Source: Eubacteriales bacterium (GTDB lineage Bacteria; Bacillota; Clostridia; Oscillospirales; CAG-272). Taken from it: a stretch of 64,000 nucleotides of DNA. Positions 34,635-51,085 of the stretch are shown here, one piece after another (the stretch's first letter is position 1; each line of letters opens with the position of its first letter). Below the pieces are notes generated by a model. It saw only the letters and a program-made list of their open reading frames with translations, was not told the DNA's origin and made no database searches. The stretch lies in the NCBI GenBank assembly GCA_045586785.1, contig JAZNBA010000072.1, positions 59,197 through 123,196 on the forward strand, in the 5' to 3' direction. The position numbers and the translations under genes are program-made.

Positions 34635-35549
34635 ATGCTTTATAAGGAATGGCTATCAAATTGGCTTGAAAATTACGTTAAAACCTCGGTAAAGGAGCGA
34701 ACGTATGTAAAATATGCAGATATCGTAAGAATCAGATTGTTCCCCGCACTTGGCGATTATGAATTGAATGATCTAACCCCCTTCAACGTTCAACGGTACA
34801 TAACAGAACTGTTGCATCACGGTAACTTGAAAAACGGCGAAGGATTGTCTGCAAACACGGTGAATTTGATTATTGCCGTCATACAAAGCTCAATGGAAAC
34901 GGCGCATTCCATCGGACTTACGGATGAATACAAGATGAATAAAATAAAACGCCCGAGGGTGCAGGAAAAACAAATCTCTTGTTTTTCTCCCTCGGAGCAA
35001 AAAATGATAGAGCAAGCGGTACTCGCTGACAAGCGCAGCAAGATGATCGGCATTTTGATATGCCTGTACACCGGCTTGCGCGTGGGAGAACTGCTTGCTC
35101 TTGAATGGACGGACATTGATTTTAGTAAAAACGAGCTTTCGGTAAACAAAACTTGTCACGACAAAGGGAAATCAAGAGTTACGACCACTCCAAAAACAAT
35201 ATCCTCGGTTCGGATCATCCCTATTCCAAAACAACTCGTTCCACATTTAAAGCCACTTAAAAAGCGAAGTAAAAGCCAATACGTTATATCCGAAAACGGC
35301 ACGTATATTTCGGTTCGATCATATCAGCGGAGCTTTGAACTGCTGTTAAAACGGCTTGGAATCGCTCATCAAGGCTTTCATTCTCTGCGACACACCTTTG
35401 CAACAAGGGCATTGGAGTGCGGAATGGATGTCAAAACGCTCTCGGAGATCCTCGGACATAAAAACGCGACGGTCACACTCAATCGCTATGCCCATTCACT
35501 GATGGATCACAAACGAGAGATGATGAACCGCCTTGGAAAACTGATGTAA
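34635..35549 (+). CDS. tyrosine-type site-specific recombinase/integrase
   Basis: 304 aa. SAM-like N-domain. Catalytic region ...GLRVGELLAL...HSLRHTFATRAL...LGHKNATVTLNRYAHS (R, HxxR, Y). Confidence 0.9.
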   Translation: MLYKEWLSNWLENYVKTSVKERTYVKYADIVRIRLFPALGDYELNDLTPFNVQRYITELLHHGNLKNGEGLSANTVNLIIAVIQSSMETAHSIGLTDEYKMNKIKRPRVQEKQISCFSPSEQKMIEQAVLADKRSKMIGILICLYTGLRVGELLALEWTDIDFSKNELSVNKTCHDKGKSRVTTTPKTISSVRIIPIPKQLVPHLKPLKKRSKSQYVISENGTYISVRSYQRSFELLLKRLGIAHQGFHSLRHTFATRALECGMDVKTLSEILGHKNATVTLNRYAHSLMDHKREMMNRLGKLM

Positions 35550-35556
35550 AAAAATA

Positions 35557-35584
35557 CACCTAACAATCTATTAGGTGAACAAAA
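35557..35584 (+). repeat. inverted repeat, left copy (IR-L)
   Basis: CACCTAACAATCTATTAGGTGAACAAAA. Its reverse complement matches 35689-35716 at 27/28 positions. Confidence 0.9.
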
Positions 35585-35604
35585 CAATATACTAACCCAT
35601 TATT

Positions 35605-35633
35605 ATTCTACCACAATACTCGCTTTTTTTCAA
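35605..35633 (-). promoter_or_regulatory. promoter inside the IR-flanked segment, currently facing the integrase 3' end
   Basis: Minus strand TTGAAA-17 nt-TAGAAT with TG extended -10. Confidence 0.5.
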
Positions 35634-35688
35634 TACATAGGAAGAAAAATTTACATATTTCTCCTCTATAGATGAACATCTCACGGAT

Positions 35689-35716
35689 TTTTGTTCACCT
35701 AATAGATTGTTACGTG
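35689..35716 (-). repeat. inverted repeat, right copy (IR-R)
   Basis: TTTTGTTCACCTAATAGATTGTTACGTG. Also part of a local 14-bp hairpin, 35684-35727. Confidence 0.9.
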
Positions 35717-35788
35717 AACAAAATCCGACTTGAAAATTCATCTATACCATTGACCAAATCAATGAAATAATAACAAGGAGAAACGAAA

Positions 35789-37759
35789 ATGTGTAAGTAT
35801 GAAGTGCCCAGTTCAGAATTAATGCGGAATATCAATTCGATGATTAAACCCTACGGAGTGAAGTATTTTGTCTCTGAAGAAAAATTCAATAATAACGAAA
35901 GCTGCTTTCCAACATTTGCTCGGAAGCCTGCTTCTGATGAGGACATTGCTAAATATGTGACCCATTACGGTTTGAGTCGCTATACAAAAGCCAACCAAAA
36001 AGCATTATTGGAATATTTTTGGGACGATTATCGTACTTTTTTCGGACGAGAACACGACAGAATAATTTGCACCAACTCTTTCCGTCGCTTGCAATATAAA
36101 ACGCAAGTTATGGTTAACTCTGCATCCGACGAGCAAAGAACAAGACTGTTGCATTCCTCGGAGGTTCAGAGAATCGCTAAAAAGATAGCCATTGGTGTTG
36201 GAGCCAATGCGGAATTGTCAGAAAATATAGCAATTGCTCACGATATTGGTCATGCTCCTTTTGGTCATAGTGGCGAGGAAGCAATTAGTGACTACATACT
36301 CGATATGTTCGAAAAAATCCCATCGCATTCAATTAAGAGTGGAACCACTTGTTTCTTACATGCAATGCAAAGCACCAAAGTGTTAGATTATATTGCTACC
36401 CATCCTACACTTCAGGAGAATGGTATAAATGGCTTGGGACTTTCAGATTATGTTTTAGAAGGAGTTTTGAAGCATGATTCTGATGTGTTTGCGGAGGAAA
36501 TCATAGCTGCACCCTTAAAAAAGCAGTACGATCCGGAAAGGCTGTGCGGTATTGTAGGCATCGGATCATACGAGGAAGTTAAGCGTAAGTTGCAGACATA
36601 CAATATAAAAAATAATGTCTTCATAGATACATATCCCCAAACATTTATCGGTAGCATTGAATCTCAAATTGTTGCTTGGGCTGATAAGATTGCATACCTT
36701 GGACACGATTGGGAAGAATTTTTGGATAATAAACTTCTTGAAAAATTAATGTCGAGAATCAATGATATGATTCACAAGATGTTTGAAGTTTCTTCGAAAA
36801 TTGCAGACACAAACGAAAAATTCTACATTGATACTATTTGTTTCAGACTTAAAGAGATTGAAGCCATATATTCAACTCTTGATGATACTGAAAAGGCAAA
36901 TAAAACTTTTGGTTGGAAAAAGGTTTATCAAGAATTATTGCGCATCATCGAGATTATTGAAAAAATTGAATCCGAGAACAAATTCGACCATTTCTCATCA
37001 AAAGAATATAGAGCTTTGAAAGACTATTTTGTTATGGTAATTAGTTGGACAAAGTTGCTGGACAAATATCCCTCCCCCCAAGCACTTAAATATGATCCCA
37101 TTTATATTTTCTATTTGTATTTGTCTGAGGTCAGAACAACAAATATAACAAAAAATGTTACAGAGAAAATTATCTCTGGATCCAACAGTATCCTTTCATC
37201 ACACAATTTCAACACAAGAGAAGAGTATTTATTGCACTGTAATCAAAAATGGGTTGAAGTTTTTAATAAAATCTTGTCTAACACAAGTCTTGATGAAAAA
37301 TCCAAGAAAAAGCAATTGAAAGACAGTATTCGCACTTGTTTTTTAGTTCAATTTGGTTCAGAGCAAACAAAAAACAACATCGTTAACATTGATTATAATC
37401 CTGATGTAATAAAGAAATCCAATACAGGATATTATTCTTTCGATGATACATACTGTTGCTTATTAAACATCATAGGTTGCATTTTTAGTCAATATATTAA
37501 AAGTACCCGTGTTAATTTTATGACTCAGAAGGCGAAAAGAATTGTTGCGGGATTGATGGAATATTACGTTAACCATCCCGAAATGCTCCCGTATTCTCAA
37601 CGAAGAAAGAATAACTTAAGCGATACCGATGAAGAACTTATTTATTTTATTGCAGATTATGTTGGTGGTATGACCGATCGTATGGCTAAGAAAAAATATG
37701 ATGAAATTATGTCATCGGATACCAAGTGGAGTAATGAATACAGTAGCGGCTTGAATTAA
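35789..37759 (+). CDS. dGTPase-like HD-domain (dNTP triphosphohydrolase family) protein with long C-terminal extension
   Basis: 656 aa. REHDRIICTNSFRRLQYKTQV, RTRLLHSSEVQRIAKKIA and AHDIGHAPFGHSGEE blocks. About 28 % GC on a sampled line. Confidence 0.8.
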   Translation: MCKYEVPSSELMRNINSMIKPYGVKYFVSEEKFNNNESCFPTFARKPASDEDIAKYVTHYGLSRYTKANQKALLEYFWDDYRTFFGREHDRIICTNSFRRLQYKTQVMVNSASDEQRTRLLHSSEVQRIAKKIAIGVGANAELSENIAIAHDIGHAPFGHSGEEAISDYILDMFEKIPSHSIKSGTTCFLHAMQSTKVLDYIATHPTLQENGINGLGLSDYVLEGVLKHDSDVFAEEIIAAPLKKQYDPERLCGIVGIGSYEEVKRKLQTYNIKNNVFIDTYPQTFIGSIESQIVAWADKIAYLGHDWEEFLDNKLLEKLMSRINDMIHKMFEVSSKIADTNEKFYIDTICFRLKEIEAIYSTLDDTEKANKTFGWKKVYQELLRIIEIIEKIESENKFDHFSSKEYRALKDYFVMVISWTKLLDKYPSPQALKYDPIYIFYLYLSEVRTTNITKNVTEKIISGSNSILSSHNFNTREEYLLHCNQKWVEVFNKILSNTSLDEKSKKKQLKDSIRTCFLVQFGSEQTKNNIVNIDYNPDVIKKSNTGYYSFDDTYCCLLNIIGCIFSQYIKSTRVNFMTQKAKRIVAGLMEYYVNHPEMLPYSQRRKNNLSDTDEELIYFIADYVGGMTDRMAKKKYDEIMSSDTKWSNEYSSGLN

Positions 37760-37780
37760 TCGCTATTTCAAGAATATTAT

Positions 37781-39388
37781 ATGAGAAATAAACCTTTCCC
37801 ACACTACAAGCACCCCATTTACGAAACCTTTGAACAGCTTCTCACTATTGTCAAATCAAAACACGGCGACAAGGTACTGTTCCGCACCCGACGTCACAAG
37901 AGCGAGGTAACTGTTACATACAATCAGTTTTACGATGATGTGCAAAAGCTCGCATCGCATTTCAGCAAGACCTACGGCGCGCACAACAAGATTGCCGTGA
38001 TCGGTGAAAACAGCTACGAATGGATTTTGACCTATTTCGCTGTCGTTTGCAGCAACAACATCATCGTTCCCATCGATAAGGAACTCTCCGCTCCCGACAT
38101 TGCCGAGCTACTGAAGGAGTGCGAGTATCGCACCTTGATCTATTCCAAAGACTACGATGACATTGCCGACGATATTGGTGGCATCATCCCCGATTTTGAA
38201 GCAATCGCCATGCCCAAACTGCGTAGGTTTATCGAAGCAGTTGAGGCAGCAGAGTGGATCGAAACCGACAAAAATGCGCTTGCATCGATCATTTACACTT
38301 CCGGCACGACAGGAAAGAGCAAGGGTGTTATGCTCTCGCAGAAGAATATTTGCGAGGACACCCGTGCGGCGTGCGGTTTCATCGAGCTGTACGGCAGAAG
38401 CCTTGCACTCTTGCCGTTCCATCACACGTTTGCGTTTACGGTCAGCGGTCTTGCCAATATCTATTACGGCGTTGATACCCTCATCGTTCCTTCTCTCAAA
38501 AACGTGATGGAGCTGATCAACGATTTCAAGCCGACCTACCTTGCCGTTGTTCCCATGATCGTCGAAAAGGTGGACAAGGGTATCCTTCAAAAGATTGAAA
38601 AGAGCGGCAAGAAGAAACTGCTCGGCGTGCTTGATAAGGTCTGCAAGCCTTTCGATGCGCTCGGTATCGGTCTGCGAAACAAGTGCTTTTCCGCCATCAG
38701 GGGCGGTCTCGGCGGCGAGCTTGACTTCATCATTTCGGGCGGCGCGCCCATCGATCAGCAGATCATTGACCGCTTTGATTCCTATGGCATCAGAATTATG
38801 AATGGCTATGGCATTTCCGAATGCTCACCCGTTGTCAGCGTCAACCGCCGTTATCACTACCGCGCGGGTAGTATCGGTCAGGCTCTCCCCGAGGTCAAGG
38901 TCATGATCGATAATCCCGACGAGAATGACGAGGGAGAGATCTGTGTGCAGGGCGATATCGTCATGCTCGGCTACTACAATATGCCCGAAGAGACCGAAAA
39001 GGCAATCGTTGACGGCTGGTTCCACACGGGCGACCTCGGCAAGCTCGACAAGGACGGCTTCATCTACATCACGGGGCGCATTAAGAATCTGATCATCTTG
39101 TCTAACGGTAAAAACGTTTCGCCCGAAGAGCTTGAAACGCTGATCGGTCGCATCCCCGGCGTTGTCGAATGCCTCGTCTCCGAGGAAGATAATAAGCTCG
39201 TTGCCGAGATCTATCCCAATGAAGAATTCCGCGCAACGCAGAATGACATTCAAGCATATTTCGACGAGCAGATCGGCCAGCTCAACGATACACTCCCGCC
39301 CTATAAGGCGATTGCAAAGGTCGCTATCCGTGACACCGAATTTGTAAAAACTACCACCAAGAAAATTAAGAGAACATACAAAAAGTGA
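37781..39388 (+). CDS. acyl-AMP/CoA ligase (fatty-acid activating adenylate-forming enzyme)
   Basis: 535 aa. IIYTSGTTGKSKGV, GYGISE, HTGDLG, ITGRIKNLIILSNGKNVSPEELE. Confidence 0.85.
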   Translation: MRNKPFPHYKHPIYETFEQLLTIVKSKHGDKVLFRTRRHKSEVTVTYNQFYDDVQKLASHFSKTYGAHNKIAVIGENSYEWILTYFAVVCSNNIIVPIDKELSAPDIAELLKECEYRTLIYSKDYDDIADDIGGIIPDFEAIAMPKLRRFIEAVEAAEWIETDKNALASIIYTSGTTGKSKGVMLSQKNICEDTRAACGFIELYGRSLALLPFHHTFAFTVSGLANIYYGVDTLIVPSLKNVMELINDFKPTYLAVVPMIVEKVDKGILQKIEKSGKKKLLGVLDKVCKPFDALGIGLRNKCFSAIRGGLGGELDFIISGGAPIDQQIIDRFDSYGIRIMNGYGISECSPVVSVNRRYHYRAGSIGQALPEVKVMIDNPDENDEGEICVQGDIVMLGYYNMPEETEKAIVDGWFHTGDLGKLDKDGFIYITGRIKNLIILSNGKNVSPEELETLIGRIPGVVECLVSEEDNKLVAEIYPNEEFRATQNDIQAYFDEQIGQLNDTLPPYKAIAKVAIRDTEFVKTTTKKIKRTYKK

Positions 39389-39698: not shown

Positions 39699-40244
39699 AT
39701 GAGTCAGTACATCAAAATCCCCAGAGGACGTATCCCTAATCGCATTAATGATGAAATATTTAGAAAAATTGTATGTATGATTGGAAAAACTGAAAAAAGC
39801 AATTTTGTTACAGCAAAATTGTCAGACTATGCTCGTGGCAAAATTTATTTACGAAACAAGTATGGAATATGTGGATGCACATTGAAGAAAATGCATACAA
39901 TAAAAGTAACTACACACGGATTTGAAAATTTTGGCGATAACTATTCGAATTATGTGTCCCTTCATGAGGGAAAAGCAAAAATAATTTTTATGGTCATCAA
40001 AGACTATATAAAGAAAGACCCTAATAGAATAGCAGAATTACGTCATATATGTGAGGAGTTTTATACTACAAATCCTAATATTACTCCTACATACGCAAAT
40101 TCGTTGTTAAATGAAACGTTCAATTGGATTTTCGATTGTGGGTTGGAAACAGCACCTTTTTGTCAATTTAACAAACGGGACAATGCATGGGATATAGCGA
40201 ATGATATAAAATGTTCCATAGAAGAAATTGACGAAAACTTCTGA
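39699..40244 (+). CDS. hypothetical protein
   Basis: 181 aa with RBS AGGAG. About 30-32 % GC. No motif recognised. Confidence 0.5.
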   Translation: MSQYIKIPRGRIPNRINDEIFRKIVCMIGKTEKSNFVTAKLSDYARGKIYLRNKYGICGCTLKKMHTIKVTTHGFENFGDNYSNYVSLHEGKAKIIFMVIKDYIKKDPNRIAELRHICEEFYTTNPNITPTYANSLLNETFNWIFDCGLETAPFCQFNKRDNAWDIANDIKCSIEEIDENF

Positions 40245-40258
40245 AGGGAGGATATTAT

Positions 40259-40969
40259 ATGCGTCATACTGTGAATGAGTGGCAAGATTTAAGCCTGAAA
40301 AAAGATGTTGAAAATGTGGCAAGAGAAATCAAGAGAAAAGGCAAAAGAGAGAGTATTTTAACACTCGATTTGTTACTTGCCATATTAGCTATTATGTTTG
40401 ATCATTTATTCTCGGAAAATGAGTGCGAAAGGATAATAGTTTTAAGTGTAATTGCTGGATTGGCGGTAATAATTACTGCTATATATTTTTTACTAAAATT
40501 TTTGGATTGGCGTAAAGCGAGAAGAAAAATAAAAAGCGGGATCATAAAAATAAAGCCTTATGTTGATTTGTTTGATAATAATATTTGTTATTATGCCATG
40601 ACAGCAAATACGTTTAGAGAAAATTTCCAAAACGAATCTCATGATTCGTCAATAAAGAACTTCTACTTTATTGAATCGAATTACTATGTGAATAAGTGCA
40701 TAACTGAACTAAATAATATGAAAAATCTCATAGGAGAAATCTTCACAAATGATGAAAATGAAGCTGTTTCAAAAGCGAAAATTCACACTTCAAGATTAGA
40801 GAATATTATTTTGCTTTTATGTGACGCAAGAGTTAATCCAACCTCTGTATCTTCCTCAATAGAAGATACTATACGAATCTCAAAAATATATGATGCACGG
40901 ATGATAAAATTTGTTGAAACTTATAATAAGCAATTTGAAAAAACTATAGAATGGACTTCTTTTCAATAA
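40259..40969 (+). CDS. hypothetical membrane protein
   Basis: 236 aa with RBS GGGAGG. Two predicted TM helices (aa ~33-85), then a soluble domain. About 30 % GC. Confidence 0.5.
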   Translation: MRHTVNEWQDLSLKKDVENVAREIKRKGKRESILTLDLLLAILAIMFDHLFSENECERIIVLSVIAGLAVIITAIYFLLKFLDWRKARRKIKSGIIKIKPYVDLFDNNICYYAMTANTFRENFQNESHDSSIKNFYFIESNYYVNKCITELNNMKNLIGEIFTNDENEAVSKAKIHTSRLENIILLLCDARVNPTSVSSSIEDTIRISKIYDARMIKFVETYNKQFEKTIEWTSFQ

Positions 40970-50481: not shown

Positions 50482-51085
50482 TTTATCCTCGTATTCAGAT
50501 GAGCAATATCAAAATGACCTAACCACAATTCCAGTATGGCGAAGAGAAAAGGCATTGCAATACAAAAAGCTCGATGACCGCAAGCGTTCGGTCTTGGCTT
50601 TCGTGCTATTGCAGCGCGCTCTGCGTGATGAATATGGTATTACCGAGATTCCCGAATTTGTATATAACGAGTTCGGGAAACCCTCGTTGCTGAATCTGCC
50701 CATCCATTTCAGCTTGAGCCATTGTAAAGATGCCGTTGCTTGTGCCGTATCTGATCACAATATCGGTATCGACGTGGAAAGCATCGTGCCGTATAATCCC
50801 GATGTCGCTCGGAGAGTTTGCACGGCAGCAGAGCTTGAAATGCTTGAACAGAGTGATGACAAGGACGTGGAGTTCATCAAGCTTTGGACGGTTAAAGAAG
50901 CAATCTCAAAGTATGAGGGAATGGGATTGTCGTTGCCGTTTGCAGAGATTGATACGATGAATTACTTACTCTGCTCAAACGTAAGTGTTAATAGCAGATA
51001 TGTACTAAGTATTTGCTATGGAAAACGAACCGACACCCTTGCCCTTCCGCGCATCAAAATGCTATCCGCAACTGATTTAATATGA
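50462..51085 (+). CDS. Sfp-type 4'-phosphopantetheinyl transferase
   Basis: FSLSHCKDAVACAV..IGIDVE and KLWTVKEAISKYEG motifs. The start is uncertain (50420 or 50462) and overlaps the alr 3' end. Confidence 0.8.
   Translation: MLITICDLSSYSDEQYQNDLTTIPVWRREKALQYKKLDDRKRSVLAFVLLQRALRDEYGITEIPEFVYNEFGKPSLLNLPIHFSLSHCKDAVACAVSDHNIGIDVESIVPYNPDVARRVCTAAELEMLEQSDDKDVEFIKLWTVKEAISKYEGMGLSLPFAEIDTMNYLLCSNVSVNSRYVLSICYGKRTDTLALPRIKMLSATDLI

What the first reader, a model, noticed from the sequence alone, without database searches (positions are those of the whole stretch)
35789..37759. dGTPase-like HD protein heads the biosynthetic operon
The first gene downstream of the candidate switch is a 656-aa member of the dGTP triphosphohydrolase family (FRRLQYKTQV, RTRLLHSSEV, HDIGHAPFGHSGEE). 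It is only 21 nt upstream of the acyl-ligase gene. Its C-terminal extension of roughly 250 aa has no motif I recognise.

Its GC (about 28 % on a sampled line) is far below that of the next two genes (about 55 %). It was therefore probably recruited separately.

dNTP-depleting dGTPase homologs are an established anti-phage defence class. A triphosphohydrolase cotranscribed with an NRPS-like pathway is not an arrangement I know. It could be defence cargo, a self-protection function, or a real biosynthetic step.
Basis: partly seen in the sequence, partly recalled or inferred. Interest (0 to 1): 0.6.

Follow-up and report, generated by a model that had tools for sequence, protein, structure and literature searches.

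The report
Accessory long dNTPase in NRPS operon
The gene is a real, intact member of the dGTPase/SAMHD1 family of dNTP-destroying enzymes, in an unusual long form that occurs both in phage-defence islands and in a variable slot of a mobile, switch-controlled peptide-synthesis operon, so it is most likely hitch-hiking defence-type cargo and not a biosynthetic step.

Summary
ORF 35789-37759 (+, 656 aa) is real. It passes the dGTP triphosphohydrolase model TIGR01353 and keeps every metal and catalytic residue. The extra ~280 residues are not a C-terminal extension: the C-terminus is the canonical HD_assoc domain. The surplus is an N-terminal extension plus two internal inserts, which are the fast-evolving parts of the protein.

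The genome has a separate housekeeping Dgt. The long form was not found in 400 other genomes of the same taxonomic family.

Four loci place it directly 5' of the same 535-aa acyl ligase with 21-29 nt spacers and no terminator. Close ligase-ACP-PPTase clusters lack it and carry unrelated AT-rich membrane ORFs in that slot.

Its closest full-length relatives of known context include stand-alone copies with their own terminators, between Thoeris and PARIS, or next to Thoeris plus Qat.

Best reading (about 0.5): a defence-type dNTPase captured into a variable cargo slot of a mobilisable, inverton-controlled NRPS operon, and co-transcribed with it by geometry. It fails the curated anti-phage dGTPase model, so this is a new variant and not a member.

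GC is 35% against 50% (ligase), not 28% against 55%.

The parts
35789..37759 (+). Long-form dGTPase/dNTPase-family HD protein, 656 aa (P0001)
   Evidence: ORF and translation. Pfam HD plus HD_assoc. TIGR01353 180.3 bits against 152.35. AF2 model pLDDT 86, pTM 0.89. Foldseek top hit 2dqb, E 2.5e-11.
35775..35780 (+). Shine-Dalgarno AAGGAG, 8 nt before the ATG
   Evidence: Read directly.
35789..36028 (+). N-terminal extension (aa 1-80), family-specific and fast-evolving
   Evidence: Lies outside the TIGR01353/2dqb match. Mean pairwise identity is 38% among 12 close homologues.
36029..36493 (+). HD catalytic core A (aa 81-235) with H122, H151, D152
   Evidence: These residues are invariant in 33 homologues. 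Aligned to 2dqb residues 38-171. Mean pairwise identity 83%.
36494..36652 (+). Small insert (aa 236-288)
   Evidence: Profile positions 238-290 of the family alignment span only residues 171-185 of 2dqb. 41% identity among close homologues.
36653..36793 (+). HD core B (aa 289-335), helix carrying D299-K300-x2-Y303-x3-D307
   Evidence: D299, K300, Y303 and D307 are invariant. Aligned to 2dqb residues 185-214. 83% identity.
36794..37468 (+). Large all-helical insert with a beta-hairpin (aa 336-560); no recognisable fold relative
   Evidence: Helices and hairpin in the model, with block-mean pLDDT mostly 84-97. Insert-only model pLDDT 78, best PDB Foldseek hit E 0.28. A search with the insert alone finds only the same long HD family. 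47% identity; lowest GC of the gene, 30%.
37469..37723 (+). Canonical HD_assoc domain (aa 561-645) with the DYVGGMTDRMA motif
   Evidence: PF13286 E 3.4e-12 over aa 565-638. Aligned to 2dqb residues 301-371. 73% identity.
37760..37780 (+). 21-nt HD-ligase spacer with no hairpin and no clear Shine-Dalgarno; resembles the L010/L060 spacers by eye (GCTATTT / GTTATTT)
   Evidence: MFE only -8.1 kcal/mol, against -24 to -27 for the terminators behind stand-alone copies. The spacer resemblance is read by eye, without statistics.
37781..39388 (+). Acyl-AMP/CoA ligase, 535 aa; start of the conserved ligase-ACP core shared with HD-less clusters
   Evidence: Pfam AMP-binding. 82-85% nt identity to L051 and L053 begins at 37781, and to L054 at 37859.
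35557..35716 (.). Invertible promoter: 28-nt IRs flank 104 nt. TTGAAA-17-TAGAAT lies on the minus strand (35633..35605), so the switch is OFF for the HD operon in this assembly.
34635..35549 (+). Tyrosine recombinase next to the switch
   Evidence: Pfam Phage_integrase plus SAM-like N-terminal domain.

Best explanation
The gene encodes an intact long-form dNTP triphosphohydrolase of the Dgt/TT1383/SAMHD1 superfamily. It is an accessory, horizontally moving gene and not the cell's housekeeping Dgt.

Its ancestral state was most likely a stand-alone cistron with its own terminator, as still seen in defence islands. It was then captured into the variable, AT-rich slot immediately 5' of the acyl-ligase gene of a mobile NRPS operon family, and lost its terminator.

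In this window it has become the first cistron behind a recombinase-controlled invertible promoter. It would therefore be transcribed together with ligase, ACP and NRPS only in switch-ON cells.

Its most likely job is dNTP depletion that restricts phages or other invading DNA. The conserved HD core would do the chemistry, and the three fast-evolving family-specific regions (N-terminal extension, small insert, large helical insert) would serve for regulation, oligomerisation or sensing. It is not needed for the chemistry of the NRPS product.

Shown: family, fold, intact catalytic residues, insert topology, facultative presence, recurrent slot, defence-island relatives, absence of a terminator.

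Inferred: dNTPase activity, the defence role, cotranscription, the role of the inserts, and the direction of capture.
For: 1. Enzyme:
- TIGR01353 scores above its cut-off. Pfam finds HD plus HD_assoc.
- H122, H151, D152, D299, K300, Y303 and D307 are invariant in 33 homologues.
- The profile aligns to T. thermophilus dNTPase 2dqb at E 3.9e-49.
- The AF2 model has pLDDT 86, and its top 50 PDB fold matches are all dNTPases/dGTPases, including the Shewanella anti-phage dGTPase 9p8w.

2. Accessory status:
- The genome has a 338-aa Dgt that passes the equivalog NF002327 (491 against 393), plus a third paralogue.
- No homologue at E<=1e-40 was found in 400 other genomes of the same family, covering 97 genera.
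- The island carries ParB, a relaxase, NikA and a large serine recombinase.

3. Facultative in the operon:
- HD-less clusters L051, L053 and L054 share ligase, ACP and PPTase at 82-85% nt. Homology starts at the ligase ATG for L051 and L053, and 78 nt into the gene for L054.
- Their slot holds unrelated membrane ORFs of 29-33% GC.
- On the ligase tree, linkage to HD needs at least 2 changes.

4. Capture:
- HD followed by the ligase occurs in the window, L010, L059 and L060, with 21-29 nt spacers and no hairpin.
- Stand-alone copies L008 and L056 carry hairpins of -27 and -24 kcal/mol.

5. Defence association:
- P0008 (61% identity, sister of the window protein at 90/88 support) lies between ThsA/ThsB and PARIS AriA at 254 bits.
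- P0023 lies beside Thoeris plus QatABCD plus IS66.
- P0015 is frameshifted and lies beside an AAA_15 ATPase, the Lit-type Peptidase_U49 and a Roc-COR protein.

6. Conservation pattern: the core is 83% identical among close homologues, while the N-terminal extension and the inserts are 38-47%.
Against: - It fails the curated anti-phage dGTPase models: NF041026 128.6 against 400, NF003701 109.5 against 383.
- The PADLOC dGTPase hit (187 bits) is weaker than that of the housekeeping paralogue (258 bits), so it is not diagnostic.
- Tal et al. (bioRxiv 10.1101/2021.04.26.441389) found that homologues below 45% identity to Sp-dGTPase are only rarely (10%) next to defence genes.
- More remote long-family members sit in mixed contexts that include glycolysis and transport genes.
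- Four of the eight close homologues with known context are ligase-linked, with tight spacers. That could reflect selection for co-expression with the pathway.
- No phage-challenge, activity or transcript data exist.
- No family member was found on sequenced phages, plasmids or IMG/VR contigs.
Confidence: 0.5

Rival explanations
1. The dNTPase is a functional partner of the ligase/NRPS pathway, selected for co-expression. It might arrest DNA replication in the switch-ON producer subpopulation (division of labour), protect the producer, or process a nucleotide-like by-product or substrate.
For: - Four different operon architectures keep HD immediately 5' of the same ligase with 21-29 nt spacers and no terminator: Tyr-recombinase switch then HD; Ser-invertase switch then NRPS relic then HD; NRPS-TE then HD; reductase then HD.
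- Catalytic residues are kept in all of them.
- The window's ligase has no clear Shine-Dalgarno, so its translation may depend on HD.
- In L010 the NRPS gene upstream was deleted while HD and the ligase were retained.
Against: - The three context-checked ligase clusters (80-88% ligase identity) lack HD. The scarcity of HD homologues compared with ligase homologues suggests this is general.
- The same 96/95-supported HD clade contains stand-alone copies with their own terminators and no ligase nearby, in defence islands.
- FAAL-ACP-NRPS chemistry has no step for a dNTP triphosphohydrolase (established enzymology; inference).
- L010 and L060 have ligases 94% identical but HD proteins only 64% identical, so HD alleles are exchanged independently of the ligase.
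Confidence: 0.2
2. It serves the mobile element and not the host's immunity. It would be a dNTP-pool modulator that controls the island's own excision, replication or transfer, or that excludes competing elements. The link to the NRPS operon would be incidental.
For: - It lies on a mobilisable island with relaxase, NikA, ParB and two recombinases.
- Relatives sit beside sigma/DUF4367 modules, TnpV, Mob_Pre and integrases.
- Its distribution is sporadic.
Against: - No known precedent for such a role in this enzyme family (own knowledge).
- In practice it overlaps heavily with the defence reading, since excluding competing elements is itself a form of defence.
- It was not found on sequenced plasmids, phages or IMG/VR contigs.
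Confidence: 0.15
3. It is a second housekeeping-type dNTPase (pool sanitation or mutation avoidance) with no special role, or a decaying passenger.
For: - Its closest solved relative is the general dNTPase TT1383.
- Remote long-family members occur next to housekeeping genes.
- One close relative (P0015) is frameshifted.
Against: - It fails all Dgt equivalog cut-offs, while another gene in the genome passes one.
- It was not found in 400 related genomes.
- The frame is intact and all family-invariant residues are present.
- It is AT-rich, island-borne and switch-controlled.
Confidence: 0.1

Closest known systems
TT1383, the dNTP triphosphohydrolase of Thermus thermophilus (PDB 2dqb), and the short Firmicutes-type Dgt (NF002327)
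   Same: HD core plus HD_assoc domain, the same metal and catalytic motifs, and the best sequence and fold match (profile E 3.9e-49; Foldseek E 2.5e-11, TM 0.69-0.71 on the target).
   Different: This protein is about 280 residues longer, through an N-terminal extension and two internal inserts. It fails all Dgt equivalog cut-offs. It is accessory and island-borne, whereas the genome's own 338-aa gene is the equivalog.
Anti-phage dGTPase (Sp-dGTPase of Shewanella, PDB 9p8w; NCBIfam NF041026; Tal et al., bioRxiv 10.1101/2021.04.26.441389)
   Same: Same superfamily and fold. Single-gene unit. Close relatives of the window protein sit in defence islands. Predicted mode of action is dNTP depletion.
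   Different: NF041026 scores 128.6 against 400. Identity in the structural alignment is about 16%. It carries large family-specific inserts, is found in Clostridia and not Proteobacteria, and here is embedded in a biosynthetic operon behind an invertible promoter.
Human SAMHD1
   Same: The motif set (Q-x-K/L in FRRLQYK, R..H, HD..H....H, D-K-x2-Y-x3-D) matches by eye, from my own knowledge of SAMHD1, and is invariant in the family. SAMHD1 is an antiviral dNTP depleter regulated through non-catalytic elements.
   Different: No SAM domain. The allosteric-site residues were not examined. The inserts have no counterpart.
Octameric Vibrio dGTPase Vdg and the domain-fused immune dGTPases (Shi et al. 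2026, PMC13519002); CloA of the Clover system (PDB 9p8s-9p8v)
   Same: These show that dGTPase cores are reused as immune effectors with varied accessory parts and oligomeric states. CloA is among the fold matches.
   Different: Those fusions involve TIR, NLR, SIR2 or SAM modules. Here the additions are novel helical inserts with no fold relative. No partner signal-synthase gene is adjacent.
Invertible-promoter (inverton) controlled operons of gut bacteria, such as the Bacteroides capsule loci that alter phage susceptibility (PMC13139388)
   Same: A recombinase gene sits next to short inverted repeats that flank a promoter. This gives ON/OFF subpopulations, and phase variation affects phage susceptibility.
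   Different: Here the switched unit is a dNTPase gene plus an NRPS pathway on a mobilisable island in Clostridia. I found no description of that combination.

Membership tests
dGTP/dNTP triphosphohydrolase family (TIGR01353; Pfam HD + HD_assoc) | Scores above the curated TIGR01353 cut-off | tested here: met
   180.3 bits against 152.35, E 8e-53; 181.1 bits in the genome search.
dGTP/dNTP triphosphohydrolase family (TIGR01353; Pfam HD + HD_assoc) | HD domain followed by a C-terminal HD_assoc domain | tested here: met
   PF01966 at aa 121-184, 40.1 bits against 22. PF13286 at aa 565-638, 47.2 bits against 22.2.
dGTP/dNTP triphosphohydrolase family (TIGR01353; Pfam HD + HD_assoc) | H...HD...D metal ligands and the D-K-x2-Y-x3-D catalytic helix are present | tested here: met
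   H122, H151, D152, D299, K300, Y303 and D307 are present and invariant in 33 homologues. They align to the corresponding motifs of 2dqb.
dGTP/dNTP triphosphohydrolase family (TIGR01353; Pfam HD + HD_assoc) | Fold of solved dNTPases | tested here: met
   Model pLDDT 86, pTM 0.89. The 50 best PDB matches are all dNTPases/dGTPases; top hit 2dqb, E 2.5e-11.
dGTP/dNTP triphosphohydrolase family (TIGR01353; Pfam HD + HD_assoc) | Hydrolyses dNTP to deoxynucleoside plus triphosphate | not testable with these tools
   Needs purified protein.
Housekeeping Dgt (NCBIfam equivalogs NF002326-NF002330, NF002829, NF002205, NF003429) | Scores above an equivalog cut-off | tested here: not met
   Best score is 172.4 against 390. 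The genome's 338-aa gene on contig C116 scores 491.5 against 393 on NF002327.
Housekeeping Dgt (NCBIfam equivalogs NF002326-NF002330, NF002829, NF002205, NF003429) | Conserved presence in related genomes | tested here: not met
   0 of 400 other genomes of the same family have a match at E<=1e-40.
Anti-phage dGTPase (NF041026 / NF003701; Sp-dGTPase family of Tal et al.) | Scores above the curated model cut-off, or at least 45% identity to Sp-dGTPase | tested here: not met
   128.6 against 400 and 109.5 against 383. About 16% identity to 9p8w in the structural alignment. The 45% criterion is quoted.
Anti-phage dGTPase (NF041026 / NF003701; Sp-dGTPase family of Tal et al.) | Located in defence islands | tested here: inconclusive
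   - In the window itself there is no known defence gene beside it.
- Three relatives (41-61% identity) lie beside Thoeris, PARIS, Qat or Lit.
- Remote relatives are in mixed contexts.
- No background rate was computed.
Anti-phage dGTPase (NF041026 / NF003701; Sp-dGTPase family of Tal et al.) | Protects against phage by depleting dNTPs | not testable with these tools
   Needs a phage challenge and dNTP measurement.
Core gene of the ligase-ACP-NRPS biosynthetic cluster | Present in related clusters that share the ligase, ACP and PPTase | tested here: not met
   - It is absent from L051, L053, L054 and L055, whose ligases are 80-88% identical to the window's.
- There are 46 ligase clusters at 55% identity or more (P0122-P0167), against 15 HD clusters in the top group of 53-78% identity.
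- HD linkage needs at least 2 changes on the ligase tree.
Core gene of the ligase-ACP-NRPS biosynthetic cluster | Cotranscribed with the pathway genes | tested here: inconclusive
   The geometry fits: a 21-nt spacer, no hairpin, and no usable promoter in between.

The most novel reading that the evidence does not exclude
The repeated fusion of this dNTPase to the first position or the ligase-proximal slot of a phase-variable NRPS operon is adaptive. In switch-ON cells the enzyme would lower dNTP pools, so that the metabolite-producing subpopulation stops replicating and becomes refractory to phage. This would be a built-in coupling of division of labour, growth arrest and immunity, set by one invertible promoter. 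The hypervariable inserts would then tune or gate that activity.
Probability: 0.12. Interest if true: 0.75.

Novelty: new variant of a known kind. Interest (0 to 1): 0.45.

Why it matters
It defines an unannotated long-form branch of the dGTPase/SAMHD1 superfamily in gut- and rumen-type Clostridia. The branch has a highly conserved catalytic core and three fast-evolving add-ons, one of them a roughly 225-residue helical domain with no fold relative. Such add-ons are candidates for the regulatory or sensing surfaces that are poorly understood in nucleotide-depletion immunity.

It also shows that a defence-type gene can be absorbed into a biosynthetic operon and placed under an invertible promoter. 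Two practical points follow:
- Genome miners should not read every gene inside an NRPS cluster as biosynthetic.
- Defence-system finders should note that PADLOC's dGTPase model does not separate housekeeping from accessory copies.

If the coupling to the operon proves functional, it would be a new way of linking phase variation, metabolite production and dNTP control.

Tried and rejected
- PADLOC as a test for a defence role: rejected. The housekeeping paralogue scores higher (258 against 187 bits).
- A biosynthetic precedent: literature searches for dGTPase or triphosphohydrolase in NRPS clusters found nothing relevant.
- The sequence between the L010 switch and HD as a condensation-domain relic: Pfam did not recognise it. 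Nucleotide comparison did, at 90% to the 5' end of the L054 NRPS gene and 69% to the 3' end of the L059 NRPS gene.
- The same test on the window's 72 nt upstream of HD gave no similarity above shuffled controls, so the origin of the window's left junction stays open.
- Fold of the large insert alone: no PDB match better than E 0.28, only weak 14-3-3-like helical noise. A sequence search with the insert finds only the same family.
- Carriage on phages, plasmids or viral contigs: only short canonical dGTPases at under 43% identity, none of the long form.
- GTDB sampling: neither HD (400 genomes of the family) nor the ligase (399 of the class) was found outside the window's genome. No denominator could be obtained that way.
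- The AT-rich slot ORFs of HD-less clusters, and the window's own AT-rich ORFs (hyp181, hyp236) and L010 o182: no Pfam or PADLOC family, and no mutual similarity except hyp277 to hyp400.
Full report
**1. Observation**

The window has an ATG ORF at 35789-37759 on the + strand, 656 aa. An AAGGAG ribosome-binding site lies 8 nt upstream.

The gene is the first one after a pair of 28-nt inverted repeats, 35557-35584 and 35689-35716, 96% complementary. These flank 104 nt that carry a TG-extended TTGAAA-17-TAGAAT promoter-like site on the minus strand, so the switch is OFF for this gene in the assembly. A tyrosine recombinase gene lies just upstream at 34635-35549. The ORF stops 21 nt before a 535-aa AMP-binding ligase gene.

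Gene GC is 35.2% (GC3 34%; 30% in the large insert). The ligase has 50.2% (GC3 65%), the ACP 45.9%, and the window as a whole 45.9%.

**2. What the protein is**

- Pfam finds an HD domain (aa 121-184) and the phosphohydrolase-associated HD_assoc domain (aa 565-638).
- NCBIfam TIGR01353 (dGTP triphosphohydrolase) scores 180.3 bits against a cut-off of 152.35.
- A profile of 33 homologues hits T. thermophilus dNTPase 2dqb at E 3.9e-49, and then other solved dGTPases.
- An AlphaFold2 model built on that alignment is confident: pLDDT 86.3, pTM 0.89. Its 50 best PDB fold matches are all dNTPases or dGTPases: 2dqb, V. cholerae VC1979, E. coli Dgt, L. blandensis dGTPase, CloA, and the Shewanella anti-phage dGTPase 9p8w.
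- The metal ligands H122, H151, D152 and D299, and the K300-Y303-D307 helix, are invariant across the family alignment.

From established knowledge of Dgt and SAMHD1 this is the complete catalytic set, so dNTP triphosphohydrolase activity is the expected chemistry. That is an inference and was not measured.

**3. Topology**

The C-terminus is the canonical HD_assoc domain with the DYVGGMTDRMA motif. Relative to 2dqb and TIGR01353 the surplus is:
- an N-terminal extension, aa 1-80;
- a small insert, about aa 236-288;
- a large all-helical insert ending in a beta-hairpin, about aa 336-560.

Modelled alone, the large insert (pLDDT 78) has no PDB fold relative; the best hit is E 0.28. A sequence search with the insert alone returns only members of the same long HD family.

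Among 12 close homologues the catalytic core is 83% identical and HD_assoc 73%. The N-terminal extension, small insert and large insert are only 38%, 41% and 47% identical. The pattern is a conserved engine with fast-changing family-specific parts.

**4. Accessory, not housekeeping**

The genome is a MAG of 2.67 Mb and 116 contigs, and it has three dGTPase-family genes.
- The 338-aa gene on contig C116 passes the Dgt equivalog NF002327 at 491.5 against 393.
- The window's gene fails every equivalog, with a best score of 172 against 390.
- No homologue at E<=1e-40 was found in 400 other genomes of the same taxonomic family, covering 97 genera.

Long-form relatives (about 640-1100 aa) come from uncultured Ruminococcus, Acutalibacteraceae, Oscillospiraceae and Lachnospiraceae MAGs and from gut-type metagenomes. 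The best full-length homologue is only 62% identical.

The gene sits on a mobilisable island. ParB, a MobA/VirD2 relaxase and NikA lie on the left, and a LexA-like protein and a large serine recombinase on the right.

**5. Relation to the operon**

The ligase has many homologues at 80-93% identity. Three of their contexts, L051/L052, L053 and L054/L055, show the layout NRPS(C-A-T-TE), then a reductase in one case, then an unknown ORF, ligase, PCP and PPTase. None has an HD gene.

Nucleotide homology between the window and L051 and L053 starts at the ligase ATG (37781), and with L054 at 37859. It runs through ligase plus ACP to 39630 and resumes in the PPTase at 50531-50928. The HD gene is therefore outside the shared core.

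In the HD-less clusters, the position directly 5' of the ligase holds AT-rich (29-33% GC) membrane ORFs with no Pfam or PADLOC family. These are hyp360, which is unrelated to the others, and hyp277 and hyp400, which are 39% identical to each other. This position behaves as a variable, compositionally foreign slot.

HD occupies that slot in four loci:
- the window (21-nt spacer);
- L010, protein P0003 (23 nt);
- L059, protein P0007: NRPS A-T-TE, 21 nt, HD, 29 nt, ligase;
- L060, protein P0004: reductase, 6 nt, HD, 23 nt, ligase.

The HD-ligase spacers of the window, L010 and L060 resemble each other by eye, and the HD C-terminal tail is identical.

L010 is a deletion derivative. Its first 1675 nt match L054 at 90%, through the HTH gene, the resolvase, the switch and the first ~240 nt of the NRPS gene. 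The 128 nt before HD match the 3' end of the L059 NRPS gene at 69%, with a score of 48 against a shuffled maximum of 29.

On the ligase tree the HD-linked ligases need at least two changes. L010 and L060 share a 98/98 clade with the HD-less L054, and the window lies outside it. L010 and L060 have ligases 94% identical but HD proteins only 64% identical. HD alleles therefore turn over independently of the ligase.

**6. Relatives outside the operon**

On the HD tree, the four ligase-linked proteins fall in one 96/95-supported clade of eight. That clade also contains copies with no ligase nearby.
- The window's sister group, at 90/88 support, is P0008 plus P0012.
- P0008 (61% identity) lies between Thoeris genes (ThsA_Macro, ThsB_TIR) and a PARIS AriA ATPase at 254 bits over the full profile.
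- P0015 (58%) is frameshifted and lies beside an AAA_15 ATPase, a Lit-type Peptidase_U49 and a Roc-COR protein.
- P0023 (41%) follows Thoeris and QatABCD and precedes IS66.
- P0006 (61-65%, depending on the alignment) follows a sigma/DUF4367 module.

The stand-alone copies L008 and L056 are followed by strong hairpins, -27.1 and -23.9 kcal/mol, with T-rich tails. The ligase-linked copies have none, at about -8 kcal/mol.

Neighbours of more remote long-family members are mixed. They include TnpV, Mob_Pre, integrases, sigma/DUF4367, a SIR2-HerA pair and a HaeII-type R-M pair. They also include glycolysis genes, ABC transporters and GNATs.

**7. Interpretation**

The best-supported account is that a self-contained accessory dNTPase cistron, of a type that also lives in defence islands, was captured into the variable slot 5' of the ligase of a mobile NRPS operon family. 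It lost its terminator in the process. Through later rearrangement it came to stand first behind an invertible promoter, here a tyrosine-recombinase switch and in L010 a serine-invertase switch.

By geometry it is co-transcribed with the pathway. There is no hairpin, no usable promoter in the spacer, and no clear Shine-Dalgarno for the ligase.

I take its likely role to be nucleotide-depletion defence against phages or other invading DNA, at about 0.5. Phase-variable expression would limit the cost. The direction of capture and the defence role are inferences.

Points against this reading:
- It fails the curated anti-phage dGTPase models (128.6 against 400).
- The PADLOC hit is not diagnostic, because the housekeeping paralogue scores higher.
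- Tal et al. found that distant homologues of Sp-dGTPase are only rarely near defence genes.
- The fourfold retention next to the ligase leaves room for a selected functional coupling (rival, about 0.2).

**8. Comparison with the literature**

Searches found no description of a dGTPase-family gene in an NRPS cluster or behind an inverton. The 2026 survey of dGTPase architectures reports fusions to TIR, NLR, SIR2 and SAM modules and octameric stand-alone forms. It does not report this insert-bearing long form. Phase-variable loci that alter phage susceptibility are known in gut Bacteroides.

I class the finding as a new variant of a known kind.

**9. Limits**

- Contexts are known for only eight close homologues.
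- No background rate was computed for defence-gene adjacency.
- The context of the closest partial relative (P0009, 78%) could not be read.
- The assembly is a MAG with 7% estimated contamination.

Earlier notes of this scan on the same window describe the switch and the NRPS operon. I re-checked the parts I use. The scan has not reported this protein on other DNA.

Noticed in passing
L010:1234-1388 against L054:4600-4754 and L055:730-884: A second, unrelated switch is seen in both orientations. It has a 207-aa resolvase/invertase gene and 24-nt inverted repeats that flank 107 nt with a near-perfect TTGACA-17-TATAAT. The 107-nt core of L010 matches L054 and L055 at 96% only as its reverse complement (48% forward). 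It points at HD-ligase-NRPS in L010 (ON) and away from the NRPS gene in L054 and L055 (OFF).
   Followed up: yes
L051:8917-9999, L053:5071-5904, L054:8802-10004: In the HD-less relatives of the cluster, the slot directly 5' of the ligase holds AT-rich (29-33% GC) multi-TM ORFs with no Pfam or PADLOC family. hyp277 and hyp400 are 39% identical; hyp360 is unrelated. They may be immunity or export proteins, or other cargo.
   Followed up: partly
L010:1437-1854: This is a relic of an NRPS gene. The 5' ~240 nt are 90% identical to the L054 C-A-T-TE gene, and the 3' ~130 nt are 69% identical to the end of the L059 NRPS gene. Between its ligase and PCP genes L010 also carries a different C-A-T-R NRPS that L054 lacks; no test showed it was gained after the deletion. 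Module shuffling in this operon family is extensive.
   Followed up: yes
window 37760-37783: The window's ligase gene has no recognisable Shine-Dalgarno (TAAtcgctatttcaagaatattatATG). L010 and L060 have AGGAG in the corresponding spacer, and the HD-less clusters overlap the upstream stop. Ligase translation here may be weak, or coupled to HD.
   Followed up: no
G000 contig C56:10156-11169 (L003:991-2319, minus strand): A third dGTPase-family paralogue of 442 aa. It scores below the TIGR01353 cut-off (125.8 against 152.35) and below all equivalogs. Its context was not examined.
   Followed up: no
L015:1486-3430: The close HD homologue in the PARIS-like/Lit/Roc-COR island is split into 175-aa and 485-aa ORFs that overlap. 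This looks like a frameshifted copy, consistent with turnover of the gene.
   Followed up: no
L008:8248-9986, L015:4735-6442, L024:4482-6262, L025:12922-14693: A sigma70_r4 / DUF4367 / small-ORF module recurs next to long HD genes in several unrelated loci. It may mark a common type of mobile element that carries them. In L008 and L015 the module is annotated by Pfam; in L024 and L025 it is inferred from matching ORF sizes and the tallies.
   Followed up: partly
L025:882-8408: A 2508-aa ORF lies upstream of a remote long HD homologue in an Acutalibacteraceae MAG. It is not an NRPS: tblastn with the window NRPS gave no hit. It remains unidentified.
   Followed up: no
window 39699-40969: The two AT-rich ORFs inside the operon (hyp181 at 32% GC, hyp236 at 30% GC) have no family and no similarity to the slot ORFs of related clusters or to L010 o182. 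PADLOC gives only a weak CARF-like hit for hyp236 (E 0.0044).
   Followed up: partly
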